From the NCBI GenBank assembly GCA_963733525.1, contig CAVTDT010000011.1, positions 1,578 through 65,577 of the forward strand: a DNA stretch of 64,000 nt, in the 5' to 3' direction. Source of the DNA: an uncultured Alphaproteobacteria bacterium. Its GTDB lineage: Bacteria > Pseudomonadota > Alphaproteobacteria > ATCC43930 > CGMCC-115725. Under the pieces are notes generated by a model. It was not told the origin of the DNA, made no database searches, and worked only from the letters and a program-made list of their open reading frames with translations. The position numbers were made by a program, and so were the translations under genes. How positions within the stretch are numbered: position 1 is the stretch's first letter; every line of letters begins with the position of its first letter. Shown in pieces: positions 1-22,648 of this stretch.

Positions 1-545
1 GCCTCGTCCAATGCCACGGCGTCGGTGGAATACGCGAAGCGGTCCGAAGCGGAACCCCAGGGTCTGGCTGAAGCCATGCTCCTGCACGAAGGACGTCACG
101 GGAATGCCGGCGGCCTCGAAGGCACCCTCGACCGCATGTGGTGTCAGCGAGGGCTTGTAGAAGGCGGTGCCTGCGGCCGGATTTGGCGACCGGAAGATAT
201 AGGCGAAGCGCGTCATGGAGCTCCGCCAGCGTCGCCGCCGAGGCATAGATCGGCAGCGGCCCGCTGCATGGACCGATTGAGCGCGCGGACCTCGTCGATG
301 CCGTGGCAATGATCGGCATGGGCATGGGTGAAGAGCATGGCGTCGAGCCGGTCGACGCCGGCATCCAGCAGCTGCATCCGCAGGTCTGGCGAGGCATCGA
401 CCAGCACAGTGACGCCGCGGTCCTGCACCAGGATCGAGACGCGCCGGCGCCGGTTGCGGGGATTGGCGGGGTCGCAGTCGCCCCAGTCGTTGCCGATATA
501 GCGGCACGCCGCCGGACGGCCGCAGCCCAGGATCGTCACCCTCAT
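1..545 (-). pseudogene. MBL-fold metallo-hydrolase (PhnP-like), left copy; the 3' end lies outside the window and the gene is frameshifted near 265
   Basis: ORF 213..557 matches the right copy through HAHADHCHGIDEVRALNRSMQRA and then diverges. Residues 10-17 also look like a compensated double shift. Confidence 0.75.
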
Positions 546-1333
546 CGCCGAGGGCATCCCGGCCTTGGCGAACAGCCGATGAGAAATTCGCCGTCGTCGT
601 CTCGGCTAGCTCCCTGACGGTACAGCCCTTTATGCGGGCAACCTCGGCTGCGGTATGAACGATGAAGGCGGGCTCGTTGGGCTTGCCGCGCAGCGGCACC
701 GGCGCCAGGTAGGGCGCGTCGGTCTCGACCAGAATACGGTCCAGCGGCAGGTCGCGGACGATCGCCGCAGCGGCTCGCGCATTCTTGAAGGTGACGATGC
801 CCGAGAGCGAGATATAGAAGCCGATTTCGAGCGCTCTTTCGGCAAGCTCCCGGCCGGTGCTGAAGCAATGGATGACGCCGGTGAGCGGACCTTTCGCAGC
901 TCTTCCTCGAAGCATGCGCGATGGTCTCGGGGTCGGCGTCGCGGGTGTGGACGATGAGCGGCAGGCCGGTCGCCCGCGCCGCCGCGATATGGGCGCGGAA
1001 ACCTCCGCCTGCCGGTCGCGCGGGCTGTGCTCGTAATAGAAGTCGAGACCGGTCTCGCCGATGCCGACGACCTTGGGATGGCGTGCAAGCTCGGCGAGCG
1101 TGCGCCGCCGCGGTATCCGGCTCGGCCGCCGCCTCATGCGGATGGATGCCGACCGAGCACCAGACATCGGGATCGCTCTCGGCGATCGACGCGCACCGTC
1201 GGGAATTCCGTGATCTTGGTGCAGATGGTCAGCATCGTCCCCACCCCCGCCCGCCCGCGCGCGCGCGATGACCGCCGTCGCGCTCGGGCCCGGCGGCGAG
1301 GAAGTCGAGATGGCAGTGACTGTCGACGAGCAT
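543..1333 (-). pseudogene. tatD: TatD-family hydrolase, left copy, with multiple frameshifts
   Basis: MLVDSHCHLDFLAAGPERD starts at 1333 and the frame is then lost. Homology to the right copy reappears in other frames (for example GVIHCFSTGRELAE, LVETDAPYLAPVPLRGKPNEP). Confidence 0.8.
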
Positions 1334-2904
1334 CAGGCCGGCTCCGCCTCGACGAAGCGCGGAAAGACGCCGTCGGGCTTCGGCAGCGTCGTGCCGGGCT
1401 TGAGCGGCGTTGCGAGCGCGGCGAAACTCGCGCGGCATTCGCCGGGACGGCGAGCTGGTCGAGCAGCTTCGCCGGTCGCCGCCGGCACCAACGGCTGCGC
1501 CAGGATCGCGAGGTGGCGGATCACCTCGGCCAGCACATAGAGCACGGTCTCCATCCGCGCGGGATCGGTCTTGCGCAGCGTCCAAGGCGCCTGCTCGTCG
1601 ACATAGCGGTTGGCATCCGCCACCACGTGCCCACATGGGTCTCGAGCGCACGGTGGAAGGCCTGCTCGGCGAAGTCGCCGCGCAGCCGTCCGCAGCAGTC
1701 GCGCGTGCCGCGCTCCAGCAGCGCCTCGTCGGCGGCCGTGAACTCGCCGGCTCGGCACTTCCGCGCCGGCAGTTCTTGTTGATGAAGCTCAGCACGCGCT
1801 GCGCCAGATTGCCGAAGTCGTTGGCGAGGTCGCCGTTGATGCGGCCCGACCATCGCGCGGCGCGAGAAATCGCCGTCGCTGCCGAAGGGCAGCTCGCGCA
1901 GCAGGAAATAGCGCACGGCATCGAGGCCGTATTCGCTCGACCAGCTTCTGCGGCGAATGACGTTGCCGAGCGACTTCGAGATCTTCTGGCCTTCGATGGT
2001 CCACCAGCCATGGGCGAAGACGCGCTTGGGCGGTGCCAGCCCGGCCGCCGTCAGGAAGGCCGGCCAGTAGACGGCGTGGAAGCGCAGGATGTCCTTGCCG
2101 ACCATGTGCAGGTCGGCGGGCCAGAAGGTCTTGAACTCCGCGCTCGCCGTATCGGGATAGCCGACCGCGGTGATGTAGTTGGTGAGCGCGTCGAGCCAGA
2201 CATACATGACGTGCTTGGGATCGTCCGGCACCGGCACGCCCCAGGTGAAGCTGGTGCGCGAGATCGAGAGATCGCGCAGGCCGCCCTTGACGAAGCTCAT
2301 GACCTCGTTGCGCCGCGCCGTCGGGCGCGATGAAGTCGGGATTGCGCTCGTAGCAGTCGAAGAGCCAGTCCTGCCAGTCCGAGAGCCGGAAGAAATAGCT
2401 CGGCTCCTCGACCCATTCGACCTCGGCGCCGGAGGGCGCGCGCTTCTTGCCGTCGGGTCCGGTGGTGAGCTCGTCCTCGCCGTAGAAGGCCTCGTCGCGC
2501 ACCGCGTACCAGCCGGCATATTTGCCGAGATAGATGTTGTCGCTGCCCTTCGGCGACTTGTTGGCGGCGATGGCGCGCCACATCGCCTGCGAGGCCTCGA
2601 TGTGCCGCGGCTCGGTGGTGCGGATGAAATCGTCGTTGCTGATGTTCATCAGCTCCGACAGGTCGCGGAAATTCTGCGAGACGCGGTCGCAGAATGCCTG
2701 CGGATCGACGCCGGCGGCGCGCGCGGATTTCTCGACCTTCTGGCCATGCTCGTCGGTGCCGGTCAGGAACATGACCCGCCGCCCGTCGAGCCGCATGAAG
2801 CGCGCCAGCACGTCGCAGGCCACCGTCGTGTAGGCGTGGCCGATATGCGGCGCGTCGTTCACGTAGTAGATCGGCGTCGTGACGTAATAGGGCTCGCCGG
2901 TCAT
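1333..2904 (-). pseudogene. metG: Methionine--tRNA ligase, left copy, with at least 6 frame changes
   Basis: The N-terminal 194 aa lie in ORF 1789..2904 and the first shift is near 2318. The middle lies in ORFs 1521..2519 and 1229..2011, and the C-terminus in ORF 1333..1758. All pieces match the 518-aa right copy. Confidence 0.9.
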
Positions 2905-2935
2905 CAGGGCTCCTGCTGCACGCCCGCGCGTTCAG

Positions 2936-21015: not shown

Positions 21016-21055
21016 CGCGGTCGGCGAGGGTTGGTGTGGCGGCTCGCCGACCGCG
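21016..21055 (+). terminator. 13-bp perfect-stem hairpin downstream of metG, within an ~88-bp segment absent from the left arm; possibly a terminator or a REP-like element
   Basis: CGCGGTCGGCGAG (21016-21028), a 14-nt loop, then CTCGCCGACCGCG (21043-21055). There is outer imperfect pairing of ATTTGT..GTTG with CAACAAAT, and the element is followed by AAATTT. Confidence 0.4.
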
Positions 21056-21094
21056 GGCCAACAAATTTCGGCTTGTCGCCCGCGGACATAGTCC

Positions 21095-21880
21095 ATGCTC
21101 GTCGACAGCCACTGTCATCTCGACTACCTCGCGGCCGGGCCGGAGCGGGACGCGGTGATCGCGCGCGCGCGGGCGGCGGGGGTGGGGACGATGCTGACGA
21201 TCTCCACCAAGATCACCGAATTCCCGCTGGTCCGATCGATCGCCGAGAGCGATCCGGATATCTGGTGCTCGGTCGGCATCCATCCGCATGAGGCGGCGGC
21301 CGAGCCGGATACCGCGGCGGCCCAGCTCGCCGAGCTGGCGCGCCATCCCAAGGTGATCGGCATCGGCGAGACCGGTCTCGATTTCTATTACGAGCACAGC
21401 CCGCGCGACCGGCAGGCGGAGGTGTTCCGCGCCCACGCGGCGGCGGCGCGCGCGACCGGCCTGCCGCTCATCGTGCACACCCGCGACGCCGATCCCGAGA
21501 CCATCCGCATGCTTCAGGAAGAAGTTGAGAAAGGTCCGCTAACCGGCGTCATCCATTGCTTCAGCACAGGCCGGGAGCTCGCTGAAACAGCGATCGAAAT
21601 CGGATTCTATATCTCGCTCTCCGGCATCGTCACCTTCAAGAACGCGGAGCCGCTCAGGGCGATCGTCCGCGACCTGCCGATGGAGCGTATTCTGGTGGAG
21701 ACCGACGCGCCCTACCTGGCACCGGTGCCGCTGCGCGGCAAGCCCAATGAGCCCGCCTATATCGTTCATACCGCAACCGAAGTCGCGCGCATAAAGGGCT
21801 GCACCGTCAGGGAATTATCGGAGACGACGACGGCGAATTTTCATCGGCTCTTCGCCAAGGCGAGGATGCCCTCGGCATGA
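21095..21880 (+). CDS. tatD: TatD-family metal-dependent hydrolase, right copy, intact
   Basis: 261-aa ORF with DSHCHLD, GIGETGLDFYY and VETDAPYL. Confidence 0.88.
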   Translation: MLVDSHCHLDYLAAGPERDAVIARARAAGVGTMLTISTKITEFPLVRSIAESDPDIWCSVGIHPHEAAAEPDTAAAQLAELARHPKVIGIGETGLDFYYEHSPRDRQAEVFRAHAAAARATGLPLIVHTRDADPETIRMLQEEVEKGPLTGVIHCFSTGRELAETAIEIGFYISLSGIVTFKNAEPLRAIVRDLPMERILVETDAPYLAPVPLRGKPNEPAYIVHTATEVARIKGCTVRELSETTTANFHRLFAKARMPSA

Positions 21881-22648
21881 AGGTGACGATCCTGGGCTGC
21901 GGTCCGTCCAGCGGCGTGCCCTATATCGGCGACGACTGGGGCGACTGCGACCCCGCCAATCCCCGCAACCGGCGCCGGCGCGCCTCGATCCTGGTGCAGG
22001 ACCGCGGCGCCACCGTGCTGGTGGACACCTCGCCGGACATGCGGATGCAGCTGCTGGATGCCGGCGTCGGCCGGCTCGACGCCATCCTCTTCACCCACGC
22101 CCATGCCGATCACTGCCACGGCATCGACGAGGTCCGCGCGCTCAATCGGTCCATGCAGCGGGCGCTGCCGATCTATGCCTCGGCGGCGACGCTGGCGGAG
22201 CTCCATGACCGCTTCGCCTATATCTTCCGGTCGCCAAATCCGGCCGCGGGCACCGCCTTCTACAAGCCCTCGCTGACGCCGCATGCGGTCGAGGGTGCCT
22301 TCGAGGCCGCCGGCATTCCCGTGACGTCCTTCGTGCAGGAGCATGGCTTCAGCCAGACCCTGGGGTTCCGATTCGGACCGCTCGCGTATTCCACCGACGC
22401 CGTGGCATTGGACGAGGCGGCCTTCGCGGCGCTGGCAGGGGTGGAGACATGGATCGTCGACAGCTACCGCCGGACCCCGCATCCGACCCACAGCCATCTG
22501 GCCCAGACGCTGCGAGTGGATCGCTCGCGTCAAGCCGCGCCGCGCCATCCTCACGCACATGGATGTCCAGCTCGACTACGAGACGCTTTGCCGCGAGCTG
22601 CCGGCGGGAGTGGAGCCCGCCTATGACGGGCTGGTGATCGAGGCCTGA
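21877..22648 (+). pseudogene. MBL-fold metallo-hydrolase (PhnP-like), right copy, with a single extra base near 22513
   Basis: ORF 21877..22626 is good up to HLAQTL. The expected tail EWIARVKPRRAILTHMD...AYDGLVIEA is in the frame of ORF 22343..22648. The start is in an ATGA overlap with tatD. Confidence 0.65.

What the first reader, a model, noticed from the sequence alone, without database searches (positions are those of the whole stretch)
1..22418. An inverted duplication of at least 11 kb covering a housekeeping gene block, mirror-symmetric about position 11111
**What the sequence shows.** Eleven genes on the minus strand at 1-11101 are repeated in mirrored order on the plus strand at 11121-22418. 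They run MBL hydrolase, tatD, metG, holB, tmk, DD-carboxypeptidase, rlpA, lytic transglycosylase, Fe-ADH, ALDH and a truncated GS-like gene. Paired gene boundaries sum to a constant: 22216 for every boundary between 6959 and 9280, and 22222 at the centre. Intergenic spacers are duplicated too. The left arm leaves the window, so the true size is unknown.

**Why it looks like two real sequences.** The arms are not identical. The ADH pair differs at 20 of 386 residues. It also differs at many synonymous third positions, for example ctgaagacctaccgtgac (left, read on the coding strand) against ctcaaggcatatcgcgac (right, about 13188-13205). The 1161-bp ADH gene has no indel between copies. That pattern argues for two physically distinct, separately evolving sequences rather than one sequence read twice.

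**Why it is unusual.** No transposase, integrase or tRNA flanks the junction. The content includes genes that are normally single-copy and essential (metG, holB, tmk). From established knowledge, long inverted repeats with a short spacer are targets of SbcCD/recombination and are usually lost, so a persisting structure of this size is unusual.

**Alternatives.** The block could be a fold-back assembly chimera. One arm could also be a xenologous copy acquired from a relative.
Basis: partly seen in the sequence, partly recalled or inferred. Interest (0 to 1): 0.85.

Follow-up and report, generated by a model that had tools for sequence, protein, structure and literature searches.

The report
Fold-back misassembly joining two strains
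The 11-kb mirror-image duplication is really in the sequence, but it is most likely an assembly artefact in which two co-occurring strains of one soil bacterium were joined head-to-head, not a real giant palindrome in a chromosome.

Summary
Window 1-11102 and 11098-22418 are mirror images, about 94% identical, meeting at 11098-11120. The arms are two truly different sequences, because their differences sit mainly at third codon positions. The evidence argues against a real duplication in one genome.

1. The turn-around lies inside a glutamine-synthetase-like gene. Each arm keeps only its last ~143 codons, and the gene is 458 aa in all eight relatives.
2. Independent short-read assemblies of the same species (95-97% identical) and four more distant genomes carry the block once. 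They have an intact gene and type II secretion genes upstream, which are absent from the window.
3. The arms are not each other's closest relatives. The left arm groups with the independent ENA genome (93 informative sites against 31; 2000/2000 bootstraps).
4. About 40 lineage-specific 1-bp frameshifts cluster in two patches of raw-read quality, 1-2319 and 11103-12412. That is 15-20 times the contig background. They break metG, holB, tatD and ALDH.
5. The junction is a classic snap-back, with 5-nt microhomology (TCGCG) and an 18-nt native loop, as in long-read fold-back chimeras.

Best reading: a strain-chimeric fold-back misassembly in a 91,690-bp MAG contig (about 0.85). Interest is low.

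The parts
1..11102 (-). Left arm ('L lineage'). It holds MBL hydrolase (truncated by the window start), tatD, metG, holB, tmk (4046-4654), S11 DD-carboxypeptidase (~4715-5930), rlpA (~6001-6959), MltB-type transglycosylase (7011-8003), Fe-ADH (8108-9268), ALDH (9280-10740) and the last ~143 codons of a GS-like gene (10674-11102).
   Evidence: It is 96-97% identical to the independent ENA contigs L161/L162. Thirty-one lineage-specific frameshifting indels break MBL, tatD, metG, holB, S11 and rlpA.
1..2319 (.). Error patch 1, raw-read-like consensus at the free end of the left arm. It has 27 lineage-specific 1-2 bp indels (mostly insertions, not in homopolymers) plus excess substitutions.
   Evidence: Density is about 11.6 indels per kb, against about 0.5-0.7 per kb in the unique part of the contig.
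11098..11102 (.). Junction microhomology TCGCG. It is shared by the end of the left arm (reverse complement of native CGCGA) and the start of the native right-arm sequence.
   Evidence: Alignment with native sequences of L161, L001 and L002.
11103..11120 (+). 'Spacer' or hairpin loop TCGACGGTCAATTCCTAC. This is native GS-like gene sequence in right-arm orientation, not an insert.
   Evidence: It is identical to L161 native sequence between two TCGCG motifs.
11098..22418 (+). Right arm ('R lineage'), colinear with the rest of the window. It holds the GS-like C-terminus (to 11549), ALDH (~11560-12936, frameshifted), Fe-ADH (12948-14108), transglycosylase (14213-15205), rlpA (15257-16216), S11 peptidase (16287-17501), tmk (~17560-18130, frameshift at 17922), holB (18296-19417), metG (19449-21005), tatD (21095-21880) and MBL (21877-22626).
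   Evidence: Synteny with L161/L167 continues past 22418 to at least 46033.
11103..12412 (.). Error patch 2, raw-read-like consensus immediately right of the junction. It has 9 one-bp deletions and 3 one-bp insertions specific to the right arm, which break ALDH.
18158..18294 (+). A 137-nt insertion found only in the right arm, between tmk and holB, containing a 15-nt imperfect inverted repeat. It is absent from the left arm, L161 and L001.
21003..21094 (+). Insertions of 65 + 19 nt found only in the right arm, downstream of metG, forming a 24-nt-stem GC-rich hairpin. They are absent from the left arm, L161 and L001.

Best explanation
This is a strain-chimeric fold-back misassembly, a 'false heterotype duplication'. 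The window comes from a 91,690-bp metagenome-assembled contig built from error-prone long reads. The sample held at least two lineages of one Stellaceae-like species, about 95% identical.

The right arm plus everything to its right is the genuine chromosome of lineage R. At 11098-11120, inside a GS-like gene, the contig turns back on itself through a snap-back-type junction. It then runs along the opposite strand of the same locus, and that stretch ended up representing lineage L.

Inferred mechanism:
1. A fold-back chimeric molecule or read supplied the turn. Its 3' end ...CGCGA annealed to TCGCG 23 nt away on the same strand and was extended.
2. The assembler followed it at a contig end.
3. 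Reads of the second strain were recruited to the redundant copy during overlap and polishing.
4. The stretches that recruited no reads (1-2319 and 11103-12412) stayed at raw-read quality.

Shown here: the geometry of the junction, single copy in relatives, non-sister arms and the error patches. Inferred only: the read-level history.
For: 1. The junction truncates a gene. Both arms keep only residues ~316-458 of a GS-like protein that is 458 aa in all 8 cluster members.
2. The block is single-copy with an intact GS-like gene in same-species ENA SPAdes contigs L161/L162 (95-97% nt identity). The same holds in L001-L004. Their upstream 8-9.6 kb (T2SS secretin and neighbours) has no match in the window.
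3. The arms are not sisters. In the clean region the p-distances are L-R 0.0475, L-L161 0.0321 and R-L161 0.0441. Informative sites are 93 for (L,L161), 31 for (L,R) and 33 for (R,L161), with bootstrap 2000/2000.
4. Differences are third-codon biased right up to the junction, so two real lineages abut there.
5. There are 44 lineage-specific 1-bp indels, not in homopolymers. They are concentrated at 1-2319 and 11103-12412, at 10-12 per kb. The rest of the arms has 0.15-0.45 per kb and the unique flank about 0.5-0.7 per kb.
6. The junction has 5-nt microhomology and an 18-nt native loop.
7. Both ADH copies are recorded on one 91,690-bp NCBI/ENA contig. Right-flank proteins at 28.4, 38.6 and 44.5 kb have no second copy there, so the left arm is a short terminal or sub-terminal piece.
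8. Fold-back or inverted chimeric reads make up 0.55-0.6% of ONT gDNA reads (PMC12870357). They make up 0.18-7.33% in ligation libraries, including microbial standards (PMC13141652).
Against: - No reads, coverage or assembly graph were available, so the absence of genuine spanning reads is not shown.
- A single fold-back molecule should give arms of one lineage, yet third-codon-biased divergence reaches the junction itself. The model therefore needs an extra inferred step, re-polishing of one arm by the other strain's reads.
- The error patch lies on only one side of the junction, which is not self-evidently predicted.
- I could not confirm that window position 1 is the contig end.
- The same junction geometry can arise in vivo.
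Confidence: 0.85

Rival explanations
1. A genuine chromosomal palindrome with arms of different ancestry. Either a real fold-back inverted duplication occurred in one cell line and one arm was later overwritten by homologous recombination with DNA from a sister strain. Or an 11-kb xenologous block integrated mirror-wise.
For: The arms are real, distinct lineages. The junction has microhomology compatible with in vivo template switching. Divergence of 5% would reduce hairpin extrusion. Each arm retains an intact copy of something the other has lost: tmk and ALDH in the left arm, metG and holB in the right.
Against: It needs two rare events. A newly formed perfect palindrome of 11 kb or more with an 18-nt loop is expected to be removed by SbcCD and recombination (established knowledge). 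Integration of foreign DNA would not land within 23 nt of the mirror position. The frameshifts come in dense patches with a purifying-selection substitution pattern, which looks like error rather than decay. Same-species genomes lack the structure.
Confidence: 0.07
2. An old in-situ inverted duplication whose two copies have diverged by about 5% inside this genome (true paralogues).
For: Mirror symmetry and a microhomology junction. Synonymous-biased divergence could in principle reflect two functional copies.
Against: The left arm is closer to an independent single-copy genome than to the right arm. There are 93 informative sites against 31, with bootstrap 2000/2000. That genome and all outgroups keep the ancestral intact GS-like gene. 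Gene conversion would be expected to homogenise such arms.
Confidence: 0.02
3. Read-through of a covalently closed hairpin telomere of a linear replicon, or one sequence read twice (an unsplit template/complement read).
For: The fold-back geometry, and the position probably near a contig end.
Against: The arms would then be the same molecule and could differ only by random error. In fact differences are third-codon biased and about a third of the right-arm-specific states match the outgroup. There are also three arm-specific intergenic insertions. The turn lies inside a conserved gene that is intact in 97%-identical genomes.
Confidence: 0.02

Closest known systems
Fold-back / inverted-repeat chimeric reads in long-read sequencing and the palindromic contig ends they seed (PMC12870357; PMC13141652; MDA inverted chimeras of Lasken & Stockwell 2007, as cited in PMC13141652)
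   Same: Two segments map to the same locus on opposite strands and meet within 200 bp. There is little or no foreign sequence at the junction. The junction sits at an arbitrary point in a gene. Such reads occur in microbial DNA libraries.
   Different: Here the two arms carry different strain alleles, so the artefact is not one uncorrected read. It needs strain-mixed consensus building on top.
Heterotype false duplications (haplotigs retained as duplicates) in diploid genome assemblies; from my own knowledge, e.g. the problem addressed by purge_dups
   Same: Two allelic versions of one locus, a few per cent diverged and with intact synonymous-biased differences, are placed in one assembly as if they were paralogues.
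   Different: The 'haplotypes' here are co-occurring bacterial strains in a metagenome. They are joined head-to-head in one contig rather than placed on separate contigs or in tandem.
Genuine bacterial inverted duplications and palindromes formed by template switching at short inverted repeats
   Same: A junction with a few nt of microhomology and a short native loop. TCGCGA is itself palindromic.
   Different: Genuine events give initially identical, sister arms. These arms are non-sister and about 5% diverged, and the structure is absent from same-species genomes.

Membership tests
Fold-back assembly artefact / false heterotype duplication | Mirror-symmetric arms meeting at one point with little or no foreign spacer | tested here: met
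   Arms run 1-11102 and 11098-22418. There is a 5-nt overlap, and the 18-nt loop is native gene sequence.
Fold-back assembly artefact / false heterotype duplication | The junction is at an arbitrary position that disrupts sequence intact in close relatives, and relatives carry the locus once | tested here: met
   The GS-like gene is cut at residue ~316 of 458. The block is single-copy in L161, L162 and L001-L004.
Fold-back assembly artefact / false heterotype duplication | The duplicated copies are allelic (population variants), not paralogues | tested here: met
   The topology is ((L,L161),R), with 93 informative sites against 31 and 33 and bootstrap 2000/2000.
Fold-back assembly artefact / false heterotype duplication | Locally degraded consensus where genuine read support is missing | tested here: met
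   Density is 10-12 frameshifting indels per kb at 1-2319 and 11103-12412, against 0.7 per kb or less elsewhere.
Fold-back assembly artefact / false heterotype duplication | No genuine reads span the junction; arm depth and allele phasing show two populations | not testable with these tools
   Reads and the assembly graph are not available. The contig itself could not be retrieved.
Genuine in-situ inverted duplication | The arms are each other's closest relatives | tested here: not met
Genuine in-situ inverted duplication | Microhomology or a short inverted repeat at the turn-around | tested here: met
   TCGCG / CGCGA, 23 nt apart in the native sequence. This feature is also expected for in vitro snap-back.
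Genuine in-situ inverted duplication | The structure is seen in an independent assembly or isolate | tested here: not met
   It is not present in ENA ERZ9284063/ERZ9284071 or Logan contigs of the same species. No other contig carries it.
Hairpin telomere / single molecule read twice | The arms are identical apart from random sequencing error | tested here: not met
   There is third-codon bias, outgroup-matching states and arm-specific 137-nt and 84-nt insertions.
Transposon- or integrase-mediated inverted repeat | A transposase, integrase or tRNA target at the boundaries | tested here: not met
   There are no tRNAs in the window. The genes at the centre and beyond 22418 are housekeeping types: GS-like, ALDH, MBL, GFA and MazG. 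The outer end of the left arm is outside the window.

The most novel reading that the evidence does not exclude
A living Stellaceae-like bacterium really carries an inverted duplication of 11 kb or more, with an 18-nt spacer, covering metG-holB-tmk. Its two arms descend from different strains: a fold-back duplication followed by inter-strain recombination. The two arms degenerate in complementary ways.
Probability: 0.06. Interest if true: 0.7.

Novelty: not a real feature. Interest (0 to 1): 0.1.

Why it matters
As biology it matters little. The locus is an ordinary alphaproteobacterial housekeeping block, present once in every related genome examined. Its value is as quality control. A deposited MAG contig appears to contain an 11-kb strain-chimeric fold-back. 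That falsely doubles essential single-copy genes, so it would inflate contamination and strain-heterogeneity estimates and create spurious 'paralogues' and pseudogenes. It also deletes the true upstream neighbourhood.

The case shows that synonymous-biased divergence between duplicate copies does not prove a real duplication in metagenome assemblies. A sister-group test against an independent genome of the same species settles the question. If the structure were real after all, a stable 11-kb near-palindrome over essential genes would be remarkable.

Tried and rejected
- Retrieving the source contig failed. Exact look-ups of both ADH copies, both transglycosylase copies, right-arm metG, and P0121/P0124 returned nothing. 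The genome contigs and metagenome-contig scans with ALDH found only relatives at 90% aa or less. Only cluster tables revealed a 91,690-bp NCBI/ENA contig carrying both ADH copies.
- Looking for a same-assembly contig with the full GS-like gene found only other lineages.
- P0123 (Logan SRR27973437) was tested as a possible R-lineage reference. It is a further lineage, 93% identical to right-arm ADH.
- A first mafft global alignment timed out.
- My first blast against L001.fa mixed many loci, because the file holds several records. It was redone per record.
- A GC3 frame-plot for frameshifts in the rest of the window was too noisy. It was replaced by direct comparison with L161/L167.
- Homopolymer-type nanopore error was rejected as the explanation of the indels. 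Only 3 of 44 lie in runs of 3 or more.
- The idea that the left-arm raw patch is an unpolished R-lineage read was rejected. Sites specific to the right arm persist there at third positions.
- The right-arm-only 137-nt and 84-nt inserts were checked as repeated elements and are unique in the window.
- One strand folding failed on a length limit.
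Full report
**1. The observation**

The inverted repeat exists exactly as described. The repeat finder returns a colinear series of arm pairs from 38-11101 against 11121-22382, at 88-98% complementarity. blastn of the window against its own reverse complement covers all of 1-22418 at 92.8-94.4% identity, and finds no other inverted match in the 64 kb.

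The constants 22216 and 22222 follow from the coordinates. The two quoted 18-mers are at 9011-9028 (minus strand) and 13188-13205 (plus strand). Gene identities were confirmed with NCBIfam and Pfam. There is no tRNA in the window.

A pairwise alignment of the arms gives 637 substitutions and 50 indels.

**2. The arms are two real, different sequences**

Substitutions concentrate at third codon positions. For codon positions 1/2/3 the counts are ADH 13/7/43 and transglycosylase 3/3/22. This holds in every gene, including the GS-like fragment that abuts the junction, at 3/5/23.

The right arm also has three intergenic insertions (137, 65 and 19 nt) that the left arm and two outgroups lack.

**3. 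Relatives carry the block once**

A genome-collection scan with the intact left-arm ALDH found a Microflora Danica alphaproteobacterial MAG (L001, 86% nt identity to both arms) and Stellaceae MAGs (L002-L004). In each of them the block occurs once. Homology to the window starts abruptly inside the GS-like gene, and the 5-9.6 kb upstream of that point has no counterpart anywhere in the window.

A protein search with ADH found P0001, 98% identical. Its contigs, ENA ERZ9284063 NODE_34 (52.8 kb) and ERZ9284071 NODE_465, are SPAdes short-read assemblies of the same species. They are 96-97% identical to the left arm and about 95% identical to the right arm.

These contigs have a single block in this order: T2SS secretin, three or four small genes, a 458-aa GS-like gene, ALDH, ADH, transglycosylase, rlpA, S11 peptidase, tmk, holB, metG, tatD, MBL, GFA, GFA, cytochrome b. 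Colinearity with the right arm continues past 22418 to at least 46033.

All eight members of the GS-like protein cluster are 458 aa. Each arm of the window keeps only residues ~316-458.

**4. The arms are not sisters**

I aligned the left arm, the right arm, L161 and the outgroup L001. In the clean region (left-arm coordinates 2400-9800, 7388 ungapped columns) the results were as follows.

| Comparison | p-distance |
|---|---|
| L-R | 0.0475 |
| L-L161 | 0.0321 |
| R-L161 | 0.0441 |

| Grouping | Parsimony-informative sites |
|---|---|
| (L,L161) | 93 |
| (L,R) | 31 |
| (R,L161) | 33 |

The (L,L161) grouping wins 2000 of 2000 bootstraps, and it also wins in each half of the region.

A duplication born in this genome would make L and R sisters. 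They are not. The arms are allelic versions from different lineages of a recombining population. This rules out an in-situ duplication followed by divergence. It also rules out a hairpin telomere or any other one-molecule reading.

**5. The junction**

The native sequence in L161 reads ...GGCATGA-TCGCG-TCGACGGTCAATTCCTAC-TCGCGA-CTGATCCCC....

The window plus strand reads ...GGGGATCAG-TCGCG(11098-11102)-TCGACGGTCAATTCCTAC(11103-11120)-TCGCGG-CTGATCCCC....

The left arm therefore ends in the reverse complement of the downstream CGCGA. From 11098 onward the sequence is simply the native right-arm gene, starting at the upstream TCGCG. That gives 5 nt of microhomology, an 18-nt native loop and a 23-nt offset between the arm ends.

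This is what results when a strand ending in ...CGCGA snaps back onto TCGCG 23 nt away and is extended. Nothing foreign lies at the centre.

The same geometry is produced in vitro. Fold-back reads make up 0.55-0.6% of ONT gDNA reads and are thought to arise in library preparation (PMC12870357). Inverted-repeat chimeras make up 0.18-7.33% of reads in ligation libraries, including microbial standards (PMC13141652). It can in principle also arise in vivo.

**6. Error patches**

I polarised the indels with L161 and L001.

- The left arm has 24 unique 1-bp insertions, six 1-bp deletions and one 2-bp deletion. Twenty-seven of these lie in 1-2319.
- The right arm has nine unique 1-bp deletions and four 1-bp insertions. 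Twelve of them lie in 11185-12411, and one is in tmk at 17922.
- Only 3 of 44 are in homopolymer runs of 3 or more.

The indels break MBL, tatD, metG, holB, the S11 peptidase and rlpA on the left. They break ALDH and tmk on the right. Substitution density is also raised in the two patches, with the excess spread evenly over codon positions.

| Region | Frameshifting indels per kb |
|---|---|
| Error patches (1-2319 and 11103-12412) | 10-12 |
| Rest of the arms | 0.15-0.45 |
| Unique flank, 22.5-46 kb | about 0.5-0.7 (mostly 1-bp insertions) |

The flank figures come from comparison with L161/L167.

So this is a moderately noisy long-read consensus with two stretches of near-raw quality. One is at the free end of the left arm. 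The other is immediately to the right of the fold-back. Dense frameshifts superimposed on a purifying-selection substitution pattern indicate error, not pseudogene decay.

**7. Source**

Both ADH proteins are recorded (P0121 is the left copy, P0124 the right copy) on a single 91,690-bp contig held by NCBI and ENA. The contig itself could not be retrieved.

Right-flank proteins at 28.4, 38.6 and 44.5 kb have only one copy on that contig. The left arm therefore does not continue more than about 6 kb beyond the window start, at least not with intact genes. Together with error patch 1, this suggests that the left arm is a terminal piece of the contig. That is an inference.

A Logan contig from run ERR11748454 matches the right flank at 99.5% identity. 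The R lineage therefore exists independently.

**8. Interpretation**

The most economical reading is a fold-back misassembly at, or near, the end of a metagenomic long-read contig. The redundant arm has been populated by reads of a second, co-occurring strain. This is the metagenomic analogue of a heterotype false duplication.

Two things remain open.

- Divergence reaches the junction itself, so one arm must have been re-polished by the other strain's reads. I cannot show that step.
- Only one side of the junction is of raw quality.

A real palindrome with arms of different ancestry is not strictly excluded. It would need a fold-back duplication, survival of a perfect 11-kb palindrome, and replacement of a whole arm by inter-strain recombination. 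I give it about 6-7%.

**9. Verdict**

The biological interpretation is not supported. The structure is not a real genomic feature, and its interest is low except as an assembly-quality flag.

Noticed in passing
window 18158-18294: A 137-nt insertion between tmk and holB, present only in the right-arm lineage. It is absent from the left arm, L161 and L001. It carries a 15-nt imperfect inverted repeat (CGGTAACAGATCCTC / GAGGGACTGTTACCG) and an inner 8-bp perfect one. It is unique within the window and could be a small MITE-like or structured intergenic element.
   Followed up: partly
window 21003-21094: Insertions of 65 + 19 nt downstream of metG, specific to the right-arm lineage. They form a 24-nt-stem GC-rich hairpin (21005-21028 / 21043-21066), which looks terminator- or REP-like. 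Not found elsewhere in the window.
   Followed up: partly
window 22513-24304 and scattered to 45547: The unique part of the contig also carries sporadic 1-bp insertions relative to the same-species ENA contig. Positions include 22513, 22728, 23072, 23853, 24132, 24304, 26226, 27352, 28316, 33663, 41284, 42222, 42719 and 45348-45547. Some break genes: the first GFA copy matches only positions 2-34 of the 115-position Pfam model, and the cytochrome b ORF has no Pfam hit. The deposited contig therefore has general indel errors.
   Followed up: partly
window 22847-23015 and 23270-23438: A direct repeat at 77% identity. It corresponds to two tandem GFA-family (glutathione-dependent formaldehyde-activating) paralogues, which are also tandem in L161.
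   Followed up: partly
window 33054-33112 and 36768-36826: A 59-nt direct repeat at 91.5% identity within the ntrBC-ntrYX region. It probably reflects the conserved sigma-54 activator domain shared by the NtrX-like and NtrC-like response regulators.
   Followed up: no
window 23802-46033 versus L167: Identity to the same-species ENA genome varies from about 0.5% divergence (33-36 kb; NtrY is 100% identical at protein level and is found on 6 contigs) to about 8% (42-46 kb). That mosaic is typical of a recombining population with several co-existing lineages. At least four ADH alleles at 93-98% identity are on record.
   Followed up: partly
whole window: No tRNA or tmRNA gene in 64 kb.
   Followed up: yes
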